Program-made: the position numbers
Shown: one piece after another, positions 6,001-12,000 of the stretch
Position numbering within the stretch: position 1 is the first letter of the stretch
Layout: every line of letters begins with the position of its first letter
IMG/VR virus record: IMGVR_UViG_2537562015_000012
Reading direction: 5' to 3' (one strand)
Source: a virus
Lineage: Duplodnaviria; Heunggongvirae; Uroviricota; Caudoviricetes
Length of the DNA stretch: 18,580 nucleotides

Positions 6001-9000
6001 GCATAACGTCATTATGTGGAGATGGCTGATCGCAACAGTATTCATGCTGGAAATGAGAGAGGAAAACGGCACCGTCAGCATTATTGATGACAGTGGCAAT
6101 CATTCCGTGGTTTCTGTTTATTCCAATGGCATCGTCGCCATGCCGCTGTATCCAGTAGCAGAGCGCCTCGCTATGGCAAACAACATTGAGGGCGCAATGA
6201 TCGAGAAATATGGTGTTGATGTCGGAACAAAGAATGCCATCATTTTTTACAGCAACATGTTCGATGTCGAACAGGGAACACTCACTTCGTTTGGGCGAGA
6301 AGTGCTTGCCGATCTTCACAACAGCTTTATTGCCGAACTAAACGAAAACGGCATCCCAGAAGCACCAGTGACGCACTAAACGGGGGCCAGAATGCGAAAC
6401 ATTGATCTTATCCGTCAGGTTATCAGTGCGTCTGAAAACAACTGGCCTCATGTGCTGGACTGCCTGAACATAAATGTCCCTGACTCTCCGCGCCGTCATG
6501 CTCCCTGCCCTGCATGTGGGGGCAAAGATCGATTCCGGTTCGATGACAACGGGCGCGGTAGCTTCATCTGTAATCAGTGCGGCGCTGGTGATGGGCTGGA
6601 TTTAATTAAACGCGTAAATAACTGCGACACAACAGAGGCGGCGCTTCTTGCCGCTGATGTTCTGGGTATTGATTACCGGACAACGGAAACACCAGAAGCC
6701 ACCAGCCAGAAACGGGAACAACTGGAAACCGAGCGCCAGCGACGCGAACAGGAGCGCCTGAAAAGGGCAGAGAAGGACGAACAACAAAGACGGGATACGT
6801 TTTCCCGTCAGTTTGATGACATGCGCAGAAAGGCTGTAAACGGCAAATCTGATTATCTGGTTGCGAAAGGGGTAGGTGATTTTACATTCCCTGTGTTGCC
6901 CGATGGATCTCTGTTGCTGGCGCTGGTGGATAAATCCGGCGCAGTCACAGCAGCACAGACTATTACCTCACATGGTGAAAAAAGACTCCTGACAGGTTCA
7001 GCAAAGCGAGGGGCATATCACGCCATAAACGCACAGAAACGACCTCACAGCATCATAATTGCTGAGGGGGTGGCTACCGCCCTGTCGTGCCATTTAATTC
7101 GCCCTGACGCAATGACAGTGGCAGCAATCGACGCTGGCAACCTGTTGCCAGTAGCGGAAGTCATGCGCAGAACATATCCACAGGCACAAATCATCATTGC
7201 CGCAGATAACGATCACCAGCAAGGAAACTCCGAAAGTGGAGGGATCAACACGGGGAAAGATGCCGCAGAGAGGGCCGCTATTTCCGTAGCTGGCTGGGTG
7301 TCTCTGCCACCGACTGACTATAAAGCCGACTGGAACGACTATCACCAACAACACGGGCTGGCGGCAGCCACAGCAGCATTTAAAGATTCGATGTACCAGC
7401 CACGGGGGAAAGGGGCGCAGGTGAAAAATCACAAACAGTCAGTCGGGGCGCTGAATGAGATCAGTTCTGGCGAGGTGTTAAGCGATGATGAAATTGCTGT
7501 CCTCGAAGAAATCAACCGGACGTTTACGCATGTCACCATCGGCGGGAAACACAAGGTGGTGTCGCTAAAGCCTTCTCAAACCGGCGGTGTATCGCACGTT
7601 TTCGAGGATTTATCACAATTTCAGCATTATTTTCATCATAAACCGAGAGTCGCCAGAAAGCTGGCGGGATCGGCGTGGCTGTCATGGAGTGGGAAGAACT
7701 ACAAGCCAGGAGGCGTAGGATTTTATCCAGTACCAGACAAATGCCCTGACGATGTTTTTAATCTGTATGAGGGGCTGGCACTGGAACCAATTGAAGGAGA
7801 TTGCACGGTATACCTTAATCACCTGTTGCAGGTTGTCTGTGCCGGTAATGAAGAGGCATACCAATATCTTATCCAGTGGATGGCGCACATTATCCAAAAG
7901 CCTGATGAAAAACCGTCCGTGGCAATCGTGATGAAATCTGTCCCGGGCACAGGGAAAGGCACAACGGTTAAACCGCTGCTGCAAATACTGGGGCAGTACG
8001 CCGCCCACATTAACGGGGCGGGACATATTTCAGGGCGCTTCAATTCAATACTTGCTAACAAGCTACTGGTATTTGCTGACGAAGTGACGATCCACAAGCC
8101 GTCTGAAGCTGACAGACTTAAAGCGATTATTAGCGAACCGACGTTTAACCTTGAGCGCAAGGGAATTGATGCTGAACCAATGCCGAATTTTGCCCGGTTG
8201 ATATTTGCCAGTAACAGCACACAGGTATTACAGGCAGGGATAAGAGAGCGCCGCTATCTCGTGCTTGAGCCATCTCCTGAAAAAGCACAGAGCCGGGAGT
8301 ATTTTGATCGGCTGTACAGTTGGCTTAATGATGGCGGTGCCGCAAAGTTGCTTTGGCATCTTAAAGGGGTGGATCTCTCAGGTTTTGACCCTCAACGAGC
8401 GCCACAGACCGATGCCTTACGTGAAGAAATCTTGCTGGGGCTGTCTGGCGTTGAATTGTTTCTTTATGGCGAGCTAATCAATGAACCTCCGTTTAATGGC
8501 GAAGTCCGTTTGTTTGCAAAGGATATGGTTAGTCGATTTGTAGCGTGGTCGCTTGAGCGTGGGGAAAAGCTTAAAGAACCAGCTGCCAGATCACTACTGG
8601 GTAAATCACTTGCACAAATGGGGCTGGTGAAGCATGGAAGACCAGACCGAGGGAATGGCGTGTTCTACGAACTACCAGAGGTCGGAGTTCTACAGGCTGC
8701 GTTTGCCCGTCTGATCGGTATGGGGGGTTATGATGTTTTTTAATATAGTCTTTTTACAAGAAGATCGTTTTTACCTGTACCACCTATACCACTTTGCTAA
8801 TTCAGCATTAAAAACAATGCGTTATAGTGGTACAGGTCAATATCTTACCTATACCAGACCTGTACCACCTATACCATTAACAAACGCATTTCTTCTGGCT
8901 GGCTGAGAGGGAACAACCAATGATGAGCACACCATTTTACAAAGTGCGCCAGTTAGCTTCTTCCTCTGGCTGGCAGCTACGGTTTGAGGGGCGTTCAGAC

Positions 9001-12000
9001 TGGCTACCCATTGCGGCATGGGCGAATGTTGAAATGTGTATTGACGGCGATACCGTTGAAATCATTATTCCCTGCGTGGCAAGTCGGGACGGCTGTATAG
9101 AGCCAACAGATATGGCAGCAGAAATCAGAGAGGTAAAACATGAACAATAACTATTGCATACTGCAGGGAATGACCAGAACGGAGCGCGAAGAATTAAAAA
9201 GTTTCGCTACACAGTGCGGGAATGCTGGCGACATCCAAAGTCTGGAACGCACTTTAATTATGATTGCGCACTGGATGCGCCAGGGGCAAAGAGTTTCATT
9301 TACTGAATATGCCAGCCAGTGGACAGAGGCACAGCGCGAACGGAGCGACGGTAATCACTCAACACCCGAAATGGCGAAGCAATGGCCTTTCAGTGGTAAA
9401 CGCTGTATCAGTCCCGGTGGTTCAGATTATTACCCTGCTGGTGTGGGAGATGAGCCATGTTGTGACGAGACTGAAATCCGCCACGCAGTGACAGTAATTA
9501 CCGCTGAATACCCACAATTTAACCTTGACGGACTGGCGCTCCACAACCGGAATGCGGACTGGGAAAACCCGCTTGATAACCCGTCATTTATCGTATCGGC
9601 GAAAAGCTGCCTGAGATGGATCAGAGACAACGGGATGAGTAATGCCCAGATTGAGAGCTTCCCGCAGGATAACCCCACATCTGACACGTTGAAGCATGAA
9701 GTGGAGCGATATAACCAGATAAACCACCAGCACAGTGATCACCCGCACTATATCCCCAACGGAGCATTTATTGCGGCGATGGTGGCAAGCGGCTACAAGG
9801 TTAAGCCAGCGGGAAGAATGAACGCATTTTTCAATATTTCAAAAAAGGGATTATGTGCTGCTATGGGTAAAAATTAAATAAATGGTACAGGTCTGTACAG
9901 GTGGGGAGAGGTCATTTTTACCCACCTGTACCACCTGCAGGCCGCGCCACACAAGGGTTTGTGACATGGTGGTACAGGTGGTACAGCAAAAACAGCGATT
10001 TTCTTTATAAGGTATGTTTTGCTCATCTGGCAGACGGAGGTATTCGCTGCGGTTTGGCACATAGCCCAGAACAGCAAAGAGTTTTACGAGACTTTTGTAA
10101 AATCCAGTGTACAAGGGCGTGACGTTTTTGAAGGTGAGCACTACGAAATTTTCGTAGTTCAAAAAATAGCCTCTGAGATGTTGTTATGCCTGTTCAGCAA
10201 ACCATCCGCATAGCTGATCGCGAATCAAATTACCAATGGAGCCAGAAGCAAGGGCAGAACTGGAAAGCGCCTGCCGTGAAGAGTAATGCGACTCCATAAA
10301 TATAGTTTTTAGAGTCCATAAAAAAACTGTCAAAACCTGACATACAGAACGATGCCACCAGCTACTGAACGGTGGCATTTTTTTGTGCTATTTGTTTCAT
10401 ATTTTGCAATCACAATGATGAATGTTGCGTTTTATGAAACTATAATGACTGTTGTTTTATACAGTTCTAAGGGGGGCGTTATGGCTATTTCAGTAAAGCC
10501 AGTATTGATAAGTGAGAAGCAAATGGAAGCGATAAAGAAAATTCAGGAGGAGCAGCGTAAAAAATCAGAGGTAGGAGTTGCGCCAACGATCCACGAAATT
10601 GCTCGGGGATTAATGGATAAGGCGCTGGCTTACACTTTAACTGGACGTGGGTAAATTTATGGCTACGTGGCAACAGGGTATTAATTCTGGTGGTTTTCTG
10701 GCTGGCATCGGTGCGCAAAATGAGAATGCGCCAAAGGCAAGCGACATTAACGCAACGCTTGGTCTGATCCGCGAAAACAATGAACTGGCTCGCTCAGGTG
10801 CAAATAACGTTGCTCTGACAGGTCTTCGTGGTCTGGCTGGAGTTGCTGACATTTATAAGCAGCAGCAACAGCAGGAACGTAAAGCGGCATTCCAGAAAGG
10901 TTATGCAGATGCTTATGCGTCCGGTGACAGGGAGCAGATGCGTAATCTTATTACAGCATTCCCAGAAGAGTTTGAGGAAGTCCGTAAAGGGATGAGTTAT
11001 GTCGATGATGCTCAAAGGGATGATTATGGCAATCTGGCGCTCAAAGCACAGGTAGCCTCATCGCTTGGTCAGGGCGCATTTGGCAGGTTCATGATGGATA
11101 ATGAGCAGGAGATGCGTCGTTTAGGTATCCCTCCAGAAACTATTGCTGAAATGCAGGTTAATGACCCGCAGGGCTTCCAGCATTTCGCAGGTAATCTGGC
11201 GCTGTTTTCTCTCGGTCATGAGAAGTATTTCGATATCAAAGATCAAATGGAAGGTCGTCGACTTGAGCAAGGGCGACTGGATGAAAGTATGCGTCAGGCT
11301 GACATGGAGAACGCGAGAGGATGGGCAAATATCCAGAACGCTCAACTAGACAGGGCTCAGCGAGCACAAATTCACTCAGATGAGATGGGATTGAAGCTAA
11401 TGGAGCTGGGGCAAAAAGGTAAGCCGTCAGCAGACTTAATTAAGGGATTAAATTCTGACATTACCAATTTTGGCAAAAATTATAACTCTGTCAGAGCGGC
11501 GGCAAACTCTCTGCAAGCCCTTAGCAAGGTAAATACTGGCGCTGCCCAACTTGGGATTATCTTCAACTACATGAAATCTCTTGACCCGCAGTCAGTCGTT
11601 CGTGAAGGCGAACAGGTTCAGGTAATGCGGTCTGATGGCATATGGGGACAAATCAAAGGATACATAGACCAGCTTAATGCTGGAAACGGCCTGTCGCAGG
11701 AGGCAAAGGATAACATTGTTAACGCCGCAAAAATCAACGCCAATGCTATGGGGCAGCAGTTTAACCAGCAGGTTGACGAGTATCTCGATACATATGGAGA
11801 AACTATTCCTCAGGGGCTAAGAAAAAGCCTTGAAAGAAGGAAAGCGAAGCTATTTGACGATGTTTCCGGGCAGCCTACATCACAGGCTGGCACTGGACAG
11901 GCAAAAGCGGCAACCGGAGGAATATCAGAAGGCGCAACGGCAACCAACCCTAAAACTGGTCAGAAAATCATTTACAGGAACGGAAAATGGCAGCAAATGT

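What the first reader, a model, noticed from the sequence alone, without database searches (positions are those of the whole stretch)
8773..9987. Two iteron clusters bracket two unknown genes immediately downstream of the primase (ori/crr-like architecture)
Seen: directly after the primase stop, an identical 19-bp ACCTGTACCACCTATACCA occurs twice (8773, 8859) with inverted GGTACAGG between them. About 1 kb further on, a second cluster (9883-9987) carries at least five copies of the same GGTACAG / CCTGTACC core. Established: phage P4 replication uses two separated cis elements (ori and crr) built from a repeated octamer, which I recall as TGTTCACC, bound by the alpha protein. The core here (TGTACCACC) resembles that octamer, and the two clusters flank the 76-aa and 245-aa genes. 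Inference: these are the replication origin elements of this island.
Basis: partly seen in the sequence, partly recalled or inferred. Interest (0 to 1): 0.6.

Follow-up and report, generated by a model that had tools for sequence, protein, structure and literature searches.

The report
Split replication origin of a satellite island
The two repeat clusters are real and are almost certainly the two halves of the replication origin recognised by the neighbouring primase-helicase of an E. coli phage-satellite island; this is an ordinary kind of origin, unusual only in that two genes sit between its halves.

Summary
A 9-mer, GGTAYAGGT / ACCTRTACC, occurs six times at 8773-8875 (cluster A) and five to six times at 9884-9988 (cluster B). 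It is almost absent from the rest of the window.

- The CTGTACC core lies directly 3' of homologous DUF5906-type primase-helicase genes from Enterobacterales to Methylococcales.
- Iteron columns are about 90% conserved, against about 50% for the surrounding DNA.
- Sister E. coli islands share this backbone and N-terminal primase domain. Those with a different helicase/DNA-binding half carry different iterons.
- The primase C-terminus models as a winged helix.

Cluster A has the same layout as the phage P4 ori. Offsets are 0F 9F 54R 74F 85F 94F here and 0F 10F 53R 75F 86F 96F in P4. Cluster B resembles one P4 crr unit.

In many relatives A and B are contiguous. One gene separates them in Xenorhabdus, and two genes do so here and in Salmonella, Raoultella and one Buttiauxella island. 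The bracketing of genes therefore looks like a derived, split origin.

Iterons 3' of the replicase are already known for Gram-negative PICIs and for P4. This is a new member of a known kind, with a modest architectural twist.

The parts
6392..8743 (+). Primase-helicase (783 aa): Zn-ribbon and Toprim primase domain, DUF5906-type SF3 helicase, C-terminal DNA-binding domain. It is the presumed initiator.
   Evidence: Pfam Zn_Ribbon_Prim, Toprim_3 and DUF5906. Residues 7-337 are 33% identical to P4 alpha, E 9e-41. The helicase part matches the NrS-1 primase helicase 6k9c, E 1e-16.
8426..8740 (+). C-terminal winged-helix domain of the primase-helicase (about aa 679-783), the proposed iteron reader.
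7414..10077 (.). Replication cassette that is exchanged as a unit between sister islands: helicase/DNA-binding half of the replicase, cluster A, the 76-aa gene, the 245-aa gene, cluster B and about 90 bp beyond.
   Evidence: By blastn, window 2416-7413 matches L029 25-5007 (94%) and window 10078-11257 matches L029 6940-8117 (97.7%). The stretch between is unrelated.
8773..8876 (.). Cluster A, the origin core. Six 9-mers (F = CCTRTACC on the + strand) at 8773F, 8782F, 8829R, 8847F, 8858F and 8867F.
   Evidence: The layout 0F 9F 54R 74F 85F 94F equals P4 ori in alpha-sense orientation, 0F 10F 53R 75F 86F 96F. Iteron columns are 0.90 identical across genera against 0.50 for other columns.
8792..8828 (.). 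A+T-rich 37-bp spacer inside cluster A (70% A+T), the proposed unwinding site.
   Evidence: The equivalent spacer varies in sequence but stays A+T-rich in all relatives. It is the counterpart of the A+T-rich spacer of P4 ori.
8920..9150 (+). 76-aa gene of unknown function, lodged between the origin halves. It travels with this replicase type in Enterobacterales.
   Evidence: Homologs of 41-74% identity, with the conserved N-terminus MMSTPFY, lie between A and B in Buttiauxella L006 and Xenorhabdus, and after cluster A in Pantoea. No Pfam, PHROG or NCBIfam hit.
9140..9877 (+). 245-aa gene of unknown function: a helical N-terminal part and a C-terminal winged-helix-like domain. It is a passenger, not tied to these iterons.
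   Evidence: Homologs of 64-67% identity follow unrelated RepA-type replicases and unrelated iterons in L002-L004. In Xenorhabdus the gene lies after cluster B. The model has pLDDT 88; only the last ~70 residues match winged helices, Z no higher than 5.4.
9883..9988 (.). Cluster B, the second origin half (crr-like): 9884R, 9894R (TGTACAGGT), 9924F, 9933F (degenerate ACCTGCAGG), 9971R, 9980R (GGTACAGCA). Its layout is roughly the mirror image of cluster A.
   Evidence: Inverted-repeat pairs I1, I3 and I4 link it to cluster A. Iteron columns are 0.89 identical against 0.45 elsewhere. The G+C-rich spacer motif (A)GCTACAGGCCGCGCC recurs from E. coli to Methylobacter.
9989..10020 (.). A/T-rich tract directly after cluster B (75% A+T), with the conserved ...GCGATTTTC / T-run.
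   Evidence: A T-run follows cluster B in nearly all relatives. Its role is not known.

Best explanation
The two clusters are the two halves of the vegetative replication origin of a phage-satellite (PICI-type) island of E. coli.

Proposed mechanism (inferred):
1. The island's own primase-helicase binds the 9-bp iterons through its C-terminal winged-helix domain.
2. It oligomerises on cluster A and opens the 37-bp A+T-rich spacer inside it.
3. It loads itself as an SF3 helicase and primes with its N-terminal Toprim domain.
4. Cluster B, a mirror-image array, is a second loading or enhancer platform equivalent to a P4 crr unit. It would be brought to cluster A by protein-mediated looping across the ~1 kb that holds the two genes.

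The two genes are not demonstrably origin components. The origin is contiguous in many relatives, and in this lineage it has been split by the 76-aa gene and then the 245-aa gene.

Shown here: the repeats, their specificity to this locus, their conservation, their co-inheritance with the helicase/DNA-binding half of the replicase, and the match of layout with P4.

Inferred, not shown: binding, melting, looping and replication activity.
For: 1. Enrichment. 7 of the 8 GGTACAG copies in the window lie in the two clusters, against 1.05 expected in the whole window.

2. Position. CTGTACC clusters start 7-200 bp after the stop of homologous primase-helicases of 43-91% identity. This holds in Buttiauxella, Xenorhabdus, Salmonella, Raoultella, Enterobacter, Citrobacter, Pantoea, Methylobacter, Methylomonas, Alishewanella and Alteromonadaceae. 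The motif is rare elsewhere in those loci.

3. Footprint. Iteron columns are 0.90 and 0.89 identical, other columns 0.50 and 0.45, p about 1e-11.

4. Natural module swap. Islands L028/L029 have the same backbone and an 85% identical N-terminal primase domain but a DUF927 helicase half, and they carry GTTGGTTCA iterons. L030, with a D5_N/Pox_D5 half, carries TATCCCTAC iterons. The swapped cassette in the window, 7414-10077, includes both clusters.

5. Co-variation. Relatives with a changed recognition helix have changed iterons: L022 has CTGTTCC and L025 has AGGTTGGC.

6. The C-terminal domain has a winged-helix fold.

7. Layout. Cluster A is identical in layout to the annotated P4 ori and to the P4-alpha-type L030, and cluster B is similar to a P4 crr unit.

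8. Published organisation. [quoted passage not shown]

9. Small plasmids pMP1 and pIsolateG_E carry a 34-36% related primase-helicase followed at once by their own iterons.
Against: - No experiment shows replication from this fragment or binding by the protein.
- Two relatives have cluster A but no cluster B: Enterobacter L036, whose primase is intact, and Pantoea L011. Cluster B may therefore be dispensable.
- The replicase C-terminal half is not detectably related to P4 alpha by BLASTP. It scores 20.4 bits against a cutoff of 108.7 for the P4-family C-terminal model. The P4 analogy thus rests on layout, not on demonstrated homology of the reader domain.
- The assignment of melting to cluster A rests only on base composition.
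Confidence: 0.78

Rival explanations
1. Only cluster A is the origin. Cluster B is a functionless duplicate or a decaying relic left by recombination between origins.
For: L036 (Enterobacter, intact primase) and L011 (Pantoea) have cluster A, and the 76-aa gene (L036 also the 245-aa gene), but no cluster B. Cluster A alone reproduces the complete P4 ori layout.
Against: Cluster B is present in almost all other relatives, contiguous or split. Its iteron columns are 0.89 conserved against 0.45 for the flanks. Its G+C-rich spacer and the following T-run are conserved from E. coli to Methylococcales. It lies inside the exchanged replication cassette. According to its record annotation, P4 has a cis-required second site built of the same repeats.
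Confidence: 0.12
2. The repeats are operators that control transcription of the 76-aa and 245-aa genes or of the downstream operon. They would be bound by the primase or by the winged-helix part of the 245-aa protein, and would not be origin elements.
For: Cluster A fills the 176-bp gap upstream of the 76-aa gene. The 245-aa protein has a winged-helix-like C-terminus. Initiators of iteron replicons often autoregulate through their own sites (general knowledge).
Against: The same iterons occur, contiguous, in relatives that lack both genes: L013, L014, L019, L020, L021 and L037. Homologs of the 245-aa protein at 64-67% identity sit beside unrelated iterons and have no CTGTACC cluster nearby. 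No sigma-70-like promoter was found in or near cluster A. A regulatory side-role is not excluded, but it cannot be the main explanation.
Confidence: 0.06
3. The inverted clusters are the ends of a mobile or invertible cassette carrying the two genes, that is, terminal inverted repeats or recombinase sites.
For: Clusters A and B are inverted relative to each other: I1 is 24 nt at 88%, I3 is 18 nt at 89%. They bracket 1 kb holding two genes. The content between them varies among lineages from 0 to 2 genes.
Against: The A/B pair exists with nothing between the halves in many relatives. All 130 E. coli genomes in which one match covers at least 80% of the query gave a single joined place, which the tool builds only from pieces on one strand, so none shows the segment inverted. 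All rows listed are one co-linear piece. No transposase or invertase is part of the exchanged cassette. The repeats co-vary with the helicase/DNA-binding half.
Confidence: 0.02
4. The clusters are a partition (centromere-like) site or a packaging site of the island.
For: Arrays of short repeats in both orientations also occur in parS/parC sites (general knowledge).
Against: No ParA/ParB-type or terminase small-subunit gene lies in the cassette. The site is tied to the replicase half in swaps. According to PMC6092414, EcCICFT073 is packaged through cos sites that resemble those of its helper phages, not through iteron arrays.
Confidence: 0.02

Closest known systems
Phage P4 ori and crr with the alpha primase-helicase
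   Same: The initiator has an N-terminal Zn-ribbon/Toprim primase domain (33% identity) and an SF3 helicase. There are two separate cis elements built from one short repeat in both orientations. Cluster A matches P4 ori in number, order, orientation and spacing of repeats (2 direct, A+T-rich spacer, 1 inverted, 3 direct, in ~104 bp) and in orientation relative to the replicase gene. Cluster B resembles one crr unit. One element lies directly 3' of the replicase gene.
   Different: The iteron sequence differs (CTGTACC, not TGTTCACC, which is absent). The helicase/DNA-binding half cannot be aligned with alpha by BLASTP and falls below the P4-family model cutoff. Here the ori-like block, not the crr-like block, abuts the replicase gene. 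The two elements are 1 kb apart rather than ~4.7 kb. Cluster B is a single unit, not two 120-bp direct repeats.
Replication origins of Gram-negative PICIs (EcCICFT073 pri-rep-ori; Fillol-Salom et al. 2018, PMC6092414)
   Same: The island context matches: P4-type integrase, AlpA, unidirectional genes, pri-rep, and PerC further on. The origin lies immediately 3' of the initiator gene, with sets of iterons around an A+T-rich stretch.
   Different: Here the two iteron sets are separated by two genes (~1 kb). The iteron sequence and the DUF5906-type replicase of this island were not found described in the papers searched. No origin activity has been tested for this island.
DUF927-type sister islands of E. 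coli (L032-L034)
   Same: The backbone and N-terminal primase domain are the same. There are two blocks of one iteron, one directly after the helicase gene.
   Different: The iteron is GTTGGTTCA. The two blocks are ~6.2 kb apart, the distal one upstream of perC. The window retains only that distal block, as an orphan at 16619-16730.
Origins of eukaryotic viral SF3 helicases (SV40 large T antigen, papillomavirus E1). Functional analogy only, from general knowledge.
   Same: An initiator-helicase with its own DNA-binding domain recognises short repeats in opposed orientations next to an A/T-rich tract.
   Different: No sequence relationship was tested or claimed. Those origins are compact and have no distal second element of the crr kind.

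Membership tests
Gram-negative PICI replication module (pri-rep followed by ori) | Origin located immediately 3' of the replication initiator gene | tested here: met
   Cluster A starts 30 bp after the primase-helicase stop. The position is the same in about 25 related loci.
Gram-negative PICI replication module (pri-rep followed by ori) | [quoted passage not shown] | tested here: met
   Inside cluster A, 2 iterons and 1+3 iterons flank a 37-bp spacer of 70% A+T. At the larger scale the two arrays A and B are split by 1 kb of coding DNA, which departs from the compact form.
Gram-negative PICI replication module (pri-rep followed by ori) | Island context: tyrosine integrase, AlpA regulator, rightward unidirectional gene order | tested here: met
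   The integrase is at 1-1269. AntA, Ash and the primase are all on the + strand. A helix-turn-helix regulator is annotated in the identical H10407 island, and the corresponding 67-aa gene of sister islands hits Phage_AlpA. Sister islands carry PerC.
Gram-negative PICI replication module (pri-rep followed by ori) | The pri-rep-ori fragment drives autonomous replication, and loss of ori or rep abolishes it | not testable with these tools
   This needs the plasmid-maintenance assay used for EcCICFT073 (PMC6092414).
Phage P4 ori/crr system | Alpha-type initiator: Zn-ribbon and Toprim primase fused to an SF3 helicase | tested here: met
   Pfam Zn_Ribbon_Prim, Toprim_3 and DUF5906. Residues 7-337 are 33% identical to alpha.
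Phage P4 ori/crr system | P4-family C-terminal (helicase/origin-binding) region: TIGR01613, D5_N/Pox_D5 | tested here: not met
   TIGR01613 scores 20.4 bits against a cutoff of 108.7. There is no D5_N or Pox_D5 hit. No BLASTP alignment with alpha extends beyond residue 337. The fold of the last domain is nevertheless a winged helix; that the P4 origin-binding domain (PDB 1KA8) is also a winged helix is from my own knowledge.
Phage P4 ori/crr system | Type-1 octamer TGTTCACC as the repeated unit | tested here: not met
   There are 0 copies in the window. The unit here is CCTRTACC.
Phage P4 ori/crr system | ori layout: 2 direct, A+T-rich spacer, 1 inverted, 3 direct repeats within ~100 bp | tested here: met
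   The offsets are 0F 9F 54R 74F 85F 94F here and 0F 10F 53R 75F 86F 96F in P4, in replicase-sense orientation.
Phage P4 ori/crr system | A second, separate cis element (crr) built of the same repeats | tested here: met
   Cluster B lies ~1 kb from cluster A. It is one unit, whereas P4 crr is two 120-bp direct repeats.
Phage P4 ori/crr system | Both elements required in cis and bound by the initiator | not testable with these tools
   The P4 record annotates crr as 'cis required region for replication'. Binding by alpha is from my own knowledge of Ziegelin et al. 1993, a paper that was not held.
DnaA-dependent iteron plasmids (Rep plus iterons plus DnaA boxes) | DnaA boxes and/or IHF site adjoining the iterons | tested here: not met
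   No TTATCCACA match within 1 mismatch and no IHF consensus in 8600-10300.

The most novel reading that the evidence does not exclude
Origins of SF3 primase-helicase satellites may be built from two separable half-sites whose distance is freely plastic: 0 bp, 0.3 kb, 1 kb and ~6 kb in this family, and ~4.7 kb in P4. On this reading genes can nest inside a working origin. The window's island would also be a chimera that keeps an orphan distal half-site (16619-16730) for a different helicase. It could then be replicated by the DUF927-type helicase of a co-resident sister island, or titrate it, giving cross-talk or incompatibility between satellites.
Probability: 0.25. Interest if true: 0.6.

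Novelty: new member of a known kind. Interest (0 to 1): 0.38.

Why it matters
The analysis gives a defined, testable origin for a common E. coli satellite island: near-full-length copies occur in 130 of 5426 complete genomes, ETEC H10407 among them. It covers a replicase family annotated only as 'DUF5906 domain-containing protein'. It also defines a conserved origin grammar, 2 direct, 1 inverted and 3 direct repeats, shared by three unrelated iteron sequences and by P4.

The natural series of contiguous, 0.3-kb, 1-kb and 6-kb split origins offers a way to ask what the second cis site (P4 crr) does. To my knowledge that role is not understood mechanistically.

In practice, the iteron type could be used to predict which satellite replicons are compatible, and to mark replication-module swaps.

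Tried and rejected
- Chance occurrence: rejected by shuffles.
- Widespread chromosomal repeat: rejected. The 1.4-kb region has a median of one place per genome, always beside this primase.
- Reverse search. GGTACAGNTGGTACAG was scanned against viral contigs and 80 loci were examined. Seven of the eight dense clusters have all copies in one orientation: six lie inside long ORFs, and the seventh (L088) lies outside any ORF of at least 120 aa. 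The motif reads as Gly-Thr-X codons, so I take the in-ORF clusters to be coding repeats. The only mixed-orientation non-coding cluster (L063) again lies right after an SF3 (VapE-like) helicase gene. The tandem 16-mer alone is therefore not diagnostic.
- Binding sites of the 245-aa or 76-aa protein: rejected, because the iterons occur without those genes, and the 245-aa family occurs beside other iterons.
- Structured RNA: only two sub-threshold microRNA-family matches in Rfam, taken as chance.
- Promoter or terminator role: no sigma-70-like site or terminator at either cluster.
- DnaA or IHF dependence: no boxes.
- Function of the 76-aa and 245-aa proteins: no hit in Pfam, PHROGs, NCBIfam or the homolog search, apart from one marginal unannotated PHROG hit (phrog_9576) for the 245-aa protein. 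Fold search gave only a generic winged helix.
- The Ziegelin 1993 paper on alpha binding could not be read.

Full report
**What is in the sequence.** The window is an E. coli chromosomal island, 100% identical over the tested 1.4 kb to ETEC H10407. Its genes are a P4-type tyrosine integrase, an AlpA-like regulator, AntA, Ash, a 783-aa primase-helicase (6392-8743), two unknown genes (76 aa at 8920-9150, 245 aa at 9140-9877), and then P22-type ejection-protein genes.

- The 19-mer ACCTGTACCACCTATACCA occurs at 8773 and at 8858 (not 8859).
- The inverted copy lies at 8829.
- Scored as the 9-mer GGTAYAGGT, cluster A has six copies (8773-, 8782-, 8829+, 8847-, 8858-, 8867-).
- Cluster B has five, plus one degenerate copy (9884+, 9894+, 9924-, [9933-], 9971+, 9980+).
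- GGTACAG occurs 8 times in 18.6 kb against 1.05 expected, and seven of those lie in the clusters.
- Cluster B is roughly the mirror image of cluster A (inverted pairs I1, I3, I4).

**The repeats belong to the primase-helicase.** I collected homologs of the primase and fetched 22 loci from other genomes, plus seven more loci by exact-protein look-up.

The same core, CTGTACC, forms clusters that begin 7-200 bp after the stop codon of the homologous gene. This holds in Buttiauxella, Xenorhabdus, Salmonella, Raoultella, Enterobacter, Citrobacter, Pantoea, Methylobacter, Methylomonas, Alishewanella and an Alteromonadaceae MAG, with proteins only 43-91% identical. The motif is rare in the rest of those loci.

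In alignments of the intergenic DNA from different genera, iteron columns are 0.90 (A) and 0.89 (B) identical to the window. All other columns are 0.50 and 0.45 identical, p about 1e-11.

Two relatives with a different recognition helix in the C-terminal domain have different repeats: CTGTTCC in Sansalvadorimonas and AGGTTGGC in Endozoicomonas.

**A natural swap experiment.** E. coli islands L028/L029 share the window's backbone: 94% over 2416-7413 and 97.7% over 10078-11257. Their primase N-terminal domain is 85% identical, but the rest of the protein is a DUF927 helicase. Directly after it lie GTTGGTTCA iterons, and no CTGTACC cluster.

L030 has a D5_N/Pox_D5 (true P4-alpha-type) C-terminal half, and it has TATCCCTAC iterons.

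The exchanged cassette in the window is 7414-10077. It comprises the helicase/DNA-binding half, cluster A, both genes, cluster B and about 90 bp. The iteron sequence therefore follows the C-terminal half of the replicase. It does not follow the primase domain or the island, and both clusters are part of the replication module.

The repeats do not follow the 245-aa gene either. Homologs of 64-67% identity sit after RepA-type helicases, next to unrelated iterons (AAAGTGGGGA, AAAAGTGAGG), with no CTGTACC cluster nearby.

**Comparison with P4.** The P4 GenBank record annotates the type-1 repeats of ori and crr. Read in the sense of the alpha gene, P4 ori is 0F 10F 53R 75F 86F 96F. Window cluster A is 0F 9F 54R 74F 85F 94F. 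L030, L019, L037, L020 and L035 give the same pattern.

In each case the long gap is A+T-rich: 70% here.

A P4 crr unit reads R, F, (F), spacer, R, R. Cluster B reads R, R, spacer, F, (F), spacer, R, R.

The ori/crr analogy therefore holds at the level of layout. Cluster A is the ori-like block and cluster B the crr-like block.

It does not hold at the level of sequence. TGTTCACC is absent, and the C-terminal half of the replicase fails the P4-family model, 20.4 against 108.7 bits.

**The two genes sit inside a split origin.** The relation of A to B varies among relatives.
- A and B are contiguous, in one block of 200-310 bp with no gene inside, in Buttiauxella L013, L014 and L019, in the Citrobacter P4-like satellite L037, in Methylobacter L020, in Methylomonas L021, and in a shorter form in Methylobacter L017.
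- In Xenorhabdus only the 76-aa gene lies between them (~300 bp). In L007 and L009 the 245-aa homolog lies after B.
- In E. coli, Salmonella, Raoultella and Buttiauxella L006 both genes lie between them (~1.05 kb).
- Enterobacter L036 and Pantoea L011 have A but no B.

I read the arrangement in the window as a derived state of a bipartite origin whose halves tolerate separation.

The DUF927-type sister islands show the same principle at a larger scale. They have one GTTGGTTCA block directly after the helicase gene and a second one ~6.2 kb away, upstream of perC.

**Other evidence and controls.**
- Fillol-Salom et al. 2018 state that in Gram-negative PICIs the region immediately 3' of the initiator gene is the origin, with two sets of iterons around an A+T-rich region. 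They showed that EcCICFT073 pri-rep-ori drives plasmid replication (PMC6092414). The kind of element is therefore known.
- Two small plasmids, pMP1 (7.6 kb) and pIsolateG_E (9.3 kb), carry a 34-36% related primase-helicase followed at once by their own iterons. I take that module to be their replicon, by elimination.
- No DnaA box, IHF site, promoter-like or terminator-like site lies at the clusters. Rfam gave only two sub-threshold microRNA-family matches, which I take as chance.
- A reverse search of viral contigs with the tandem 16-mer examined 80 loci. Seven of the eight dense clusters have all copies in one orientation: six lie inside long ORFs, and the seventh (L088) lies outside any ORF of at least 120 aa. 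I read the in-ORF clusters as Gly-Thr-X coding repeats. The only mixed-orientation non-coding cluster again lies after an SF3 (VapE-like) helicase gene.
- All 130 E. coli genomes in which one match covers at least 80% of the region gave a single same-strand place. There is thus no sign of inversion of the segment.

**The two proteins.** Neither has a named family hit; the only match is a marginal one (E 7e-4) of the 245-aa protein to an unannotated PHROG.
- The 76-aa protein is conserved (41-74% identity) and travels with this replicase type in Enterobacterales.
- The 245-aa protein models confidently (pLDDT 88). Only its last ~70 residues match anything, a generic winged helix at Z no higher than 5.4.
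- In other islands the 245-aa gene heads an accessory block that includes SSB and, in several of them, ProQ/FinO or PerC.
- A role in replication control is possible for the 76-aa protein, but nothing supports it beyond position.

**Verdict.** The interpretation as origin elements is supported by independent comparative tests, but no experiment has been done. The element is a new member of a known kind (PICI/P4-type iteron origin next to an SF3 primase-helicase). Its modestly new feature is that its halves are split by nested genes.

Noticed in passing
window 16619-16730: A second iteron block of a different kind. GTTGGTTCA occurs three times at 21-bp spacing, then a 43-bp A+T-rich spacer, then TGAACCAAC twice at 9-bp spacing, just upstream of ORF 16767-17054. 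This 9-mer is the iteron that follows the DUF927-type helicase of sister islands. Those islands carry both a proximal and this distal block, ~6.2 kb apart. The window has no DUF927 helicase, so here the block is an orphan left by the replication-module swap. It has one repeat fewer than in L032.
   Followed up: yes
window 7413/7414 (about residue 341 of the primase); L028-L031: The N-terminal primase domain (74-86% identical) is found fused to at least three different helicase/DNA-binding halves (DUF5906, DUF927, D5_N/Pox_D5), each with its own iterons. The recombination breakpoint lies at the domain boundary.
   Followed up: yes
window 10647-14083: A PICI-type island carries homologs of phage P22 ejection (injectosome) proteins: Pfam Inj_translocase for 10647-12002, and a PHROG 'DNA transfer protein' match (phrog_770, E 1.1e-50) for 11987-14083, whose counterpart in sister islands hits Pfam Phage_P22_gp16. 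In H10407 the first of these is annotated as a pseudogene with an internal stop. This is unusual cargo for a satellite and hints at a P22-like helper or at interference with one.
   Followed up: no
L002 5881-6654, L003 and L004 6019-6792; window 9140-9877: The 245-aa protein family (no annotation; a narrow family, 29 clusters, named members all Enterobacterales) is the first gene after the origin in islands with two unrelated replicase types. One of them, L002, carries capsid, protease, portal and terminase small-subunit genes. In several islands SSB and/or ProQ/FinO follow it.
   Followed up: partly
window 9933-9969 and 9989-10020; L014, L017, L019, L020, L037: Inside cluster B the G+C-rich spacer motif (A)GCTACAGGCCGCGCC is conserved from E. 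coli to Methylobacter, and so is a T-run directly after the last iteron, although the surrounding sequence is not. In the window the spacer also holds a small palindrome, CACAAgggTTTGTG. Its function is unknown.
   Followed up: partly
L043 6916-7120, L095 4782-4845, L110 6-564, L112, L115, L101: The same GGTACAGNT unit occurs as long same-orientation arrays with 9-bp or 18-bp periods inside large ORFs of viral contigs. I read these as Gly-Thr-X coding repeats. They would be false positives in any motif-only search for this origin.
   Followed up: partly
L025 8305-8499 and 8951-8981: The Endozoicomonas relative (43% identical primase) has eight AGGTTGGC repeats after the gene in place of CTGTACC. 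Further on it has a tandem GACACC hexamer array.
   Followed up: no
L037 (Citrobacter freundii): The same DUF5906-type replicase and a contiguous CTGTACC origin occur in a P4-like satellite (P2-capsid-like gene, epsilon-like 'Derepression' domain, Ogr/Delta). This replication module is therefore shared between P4-like and PICI-type satellites.
   Followed up: partly
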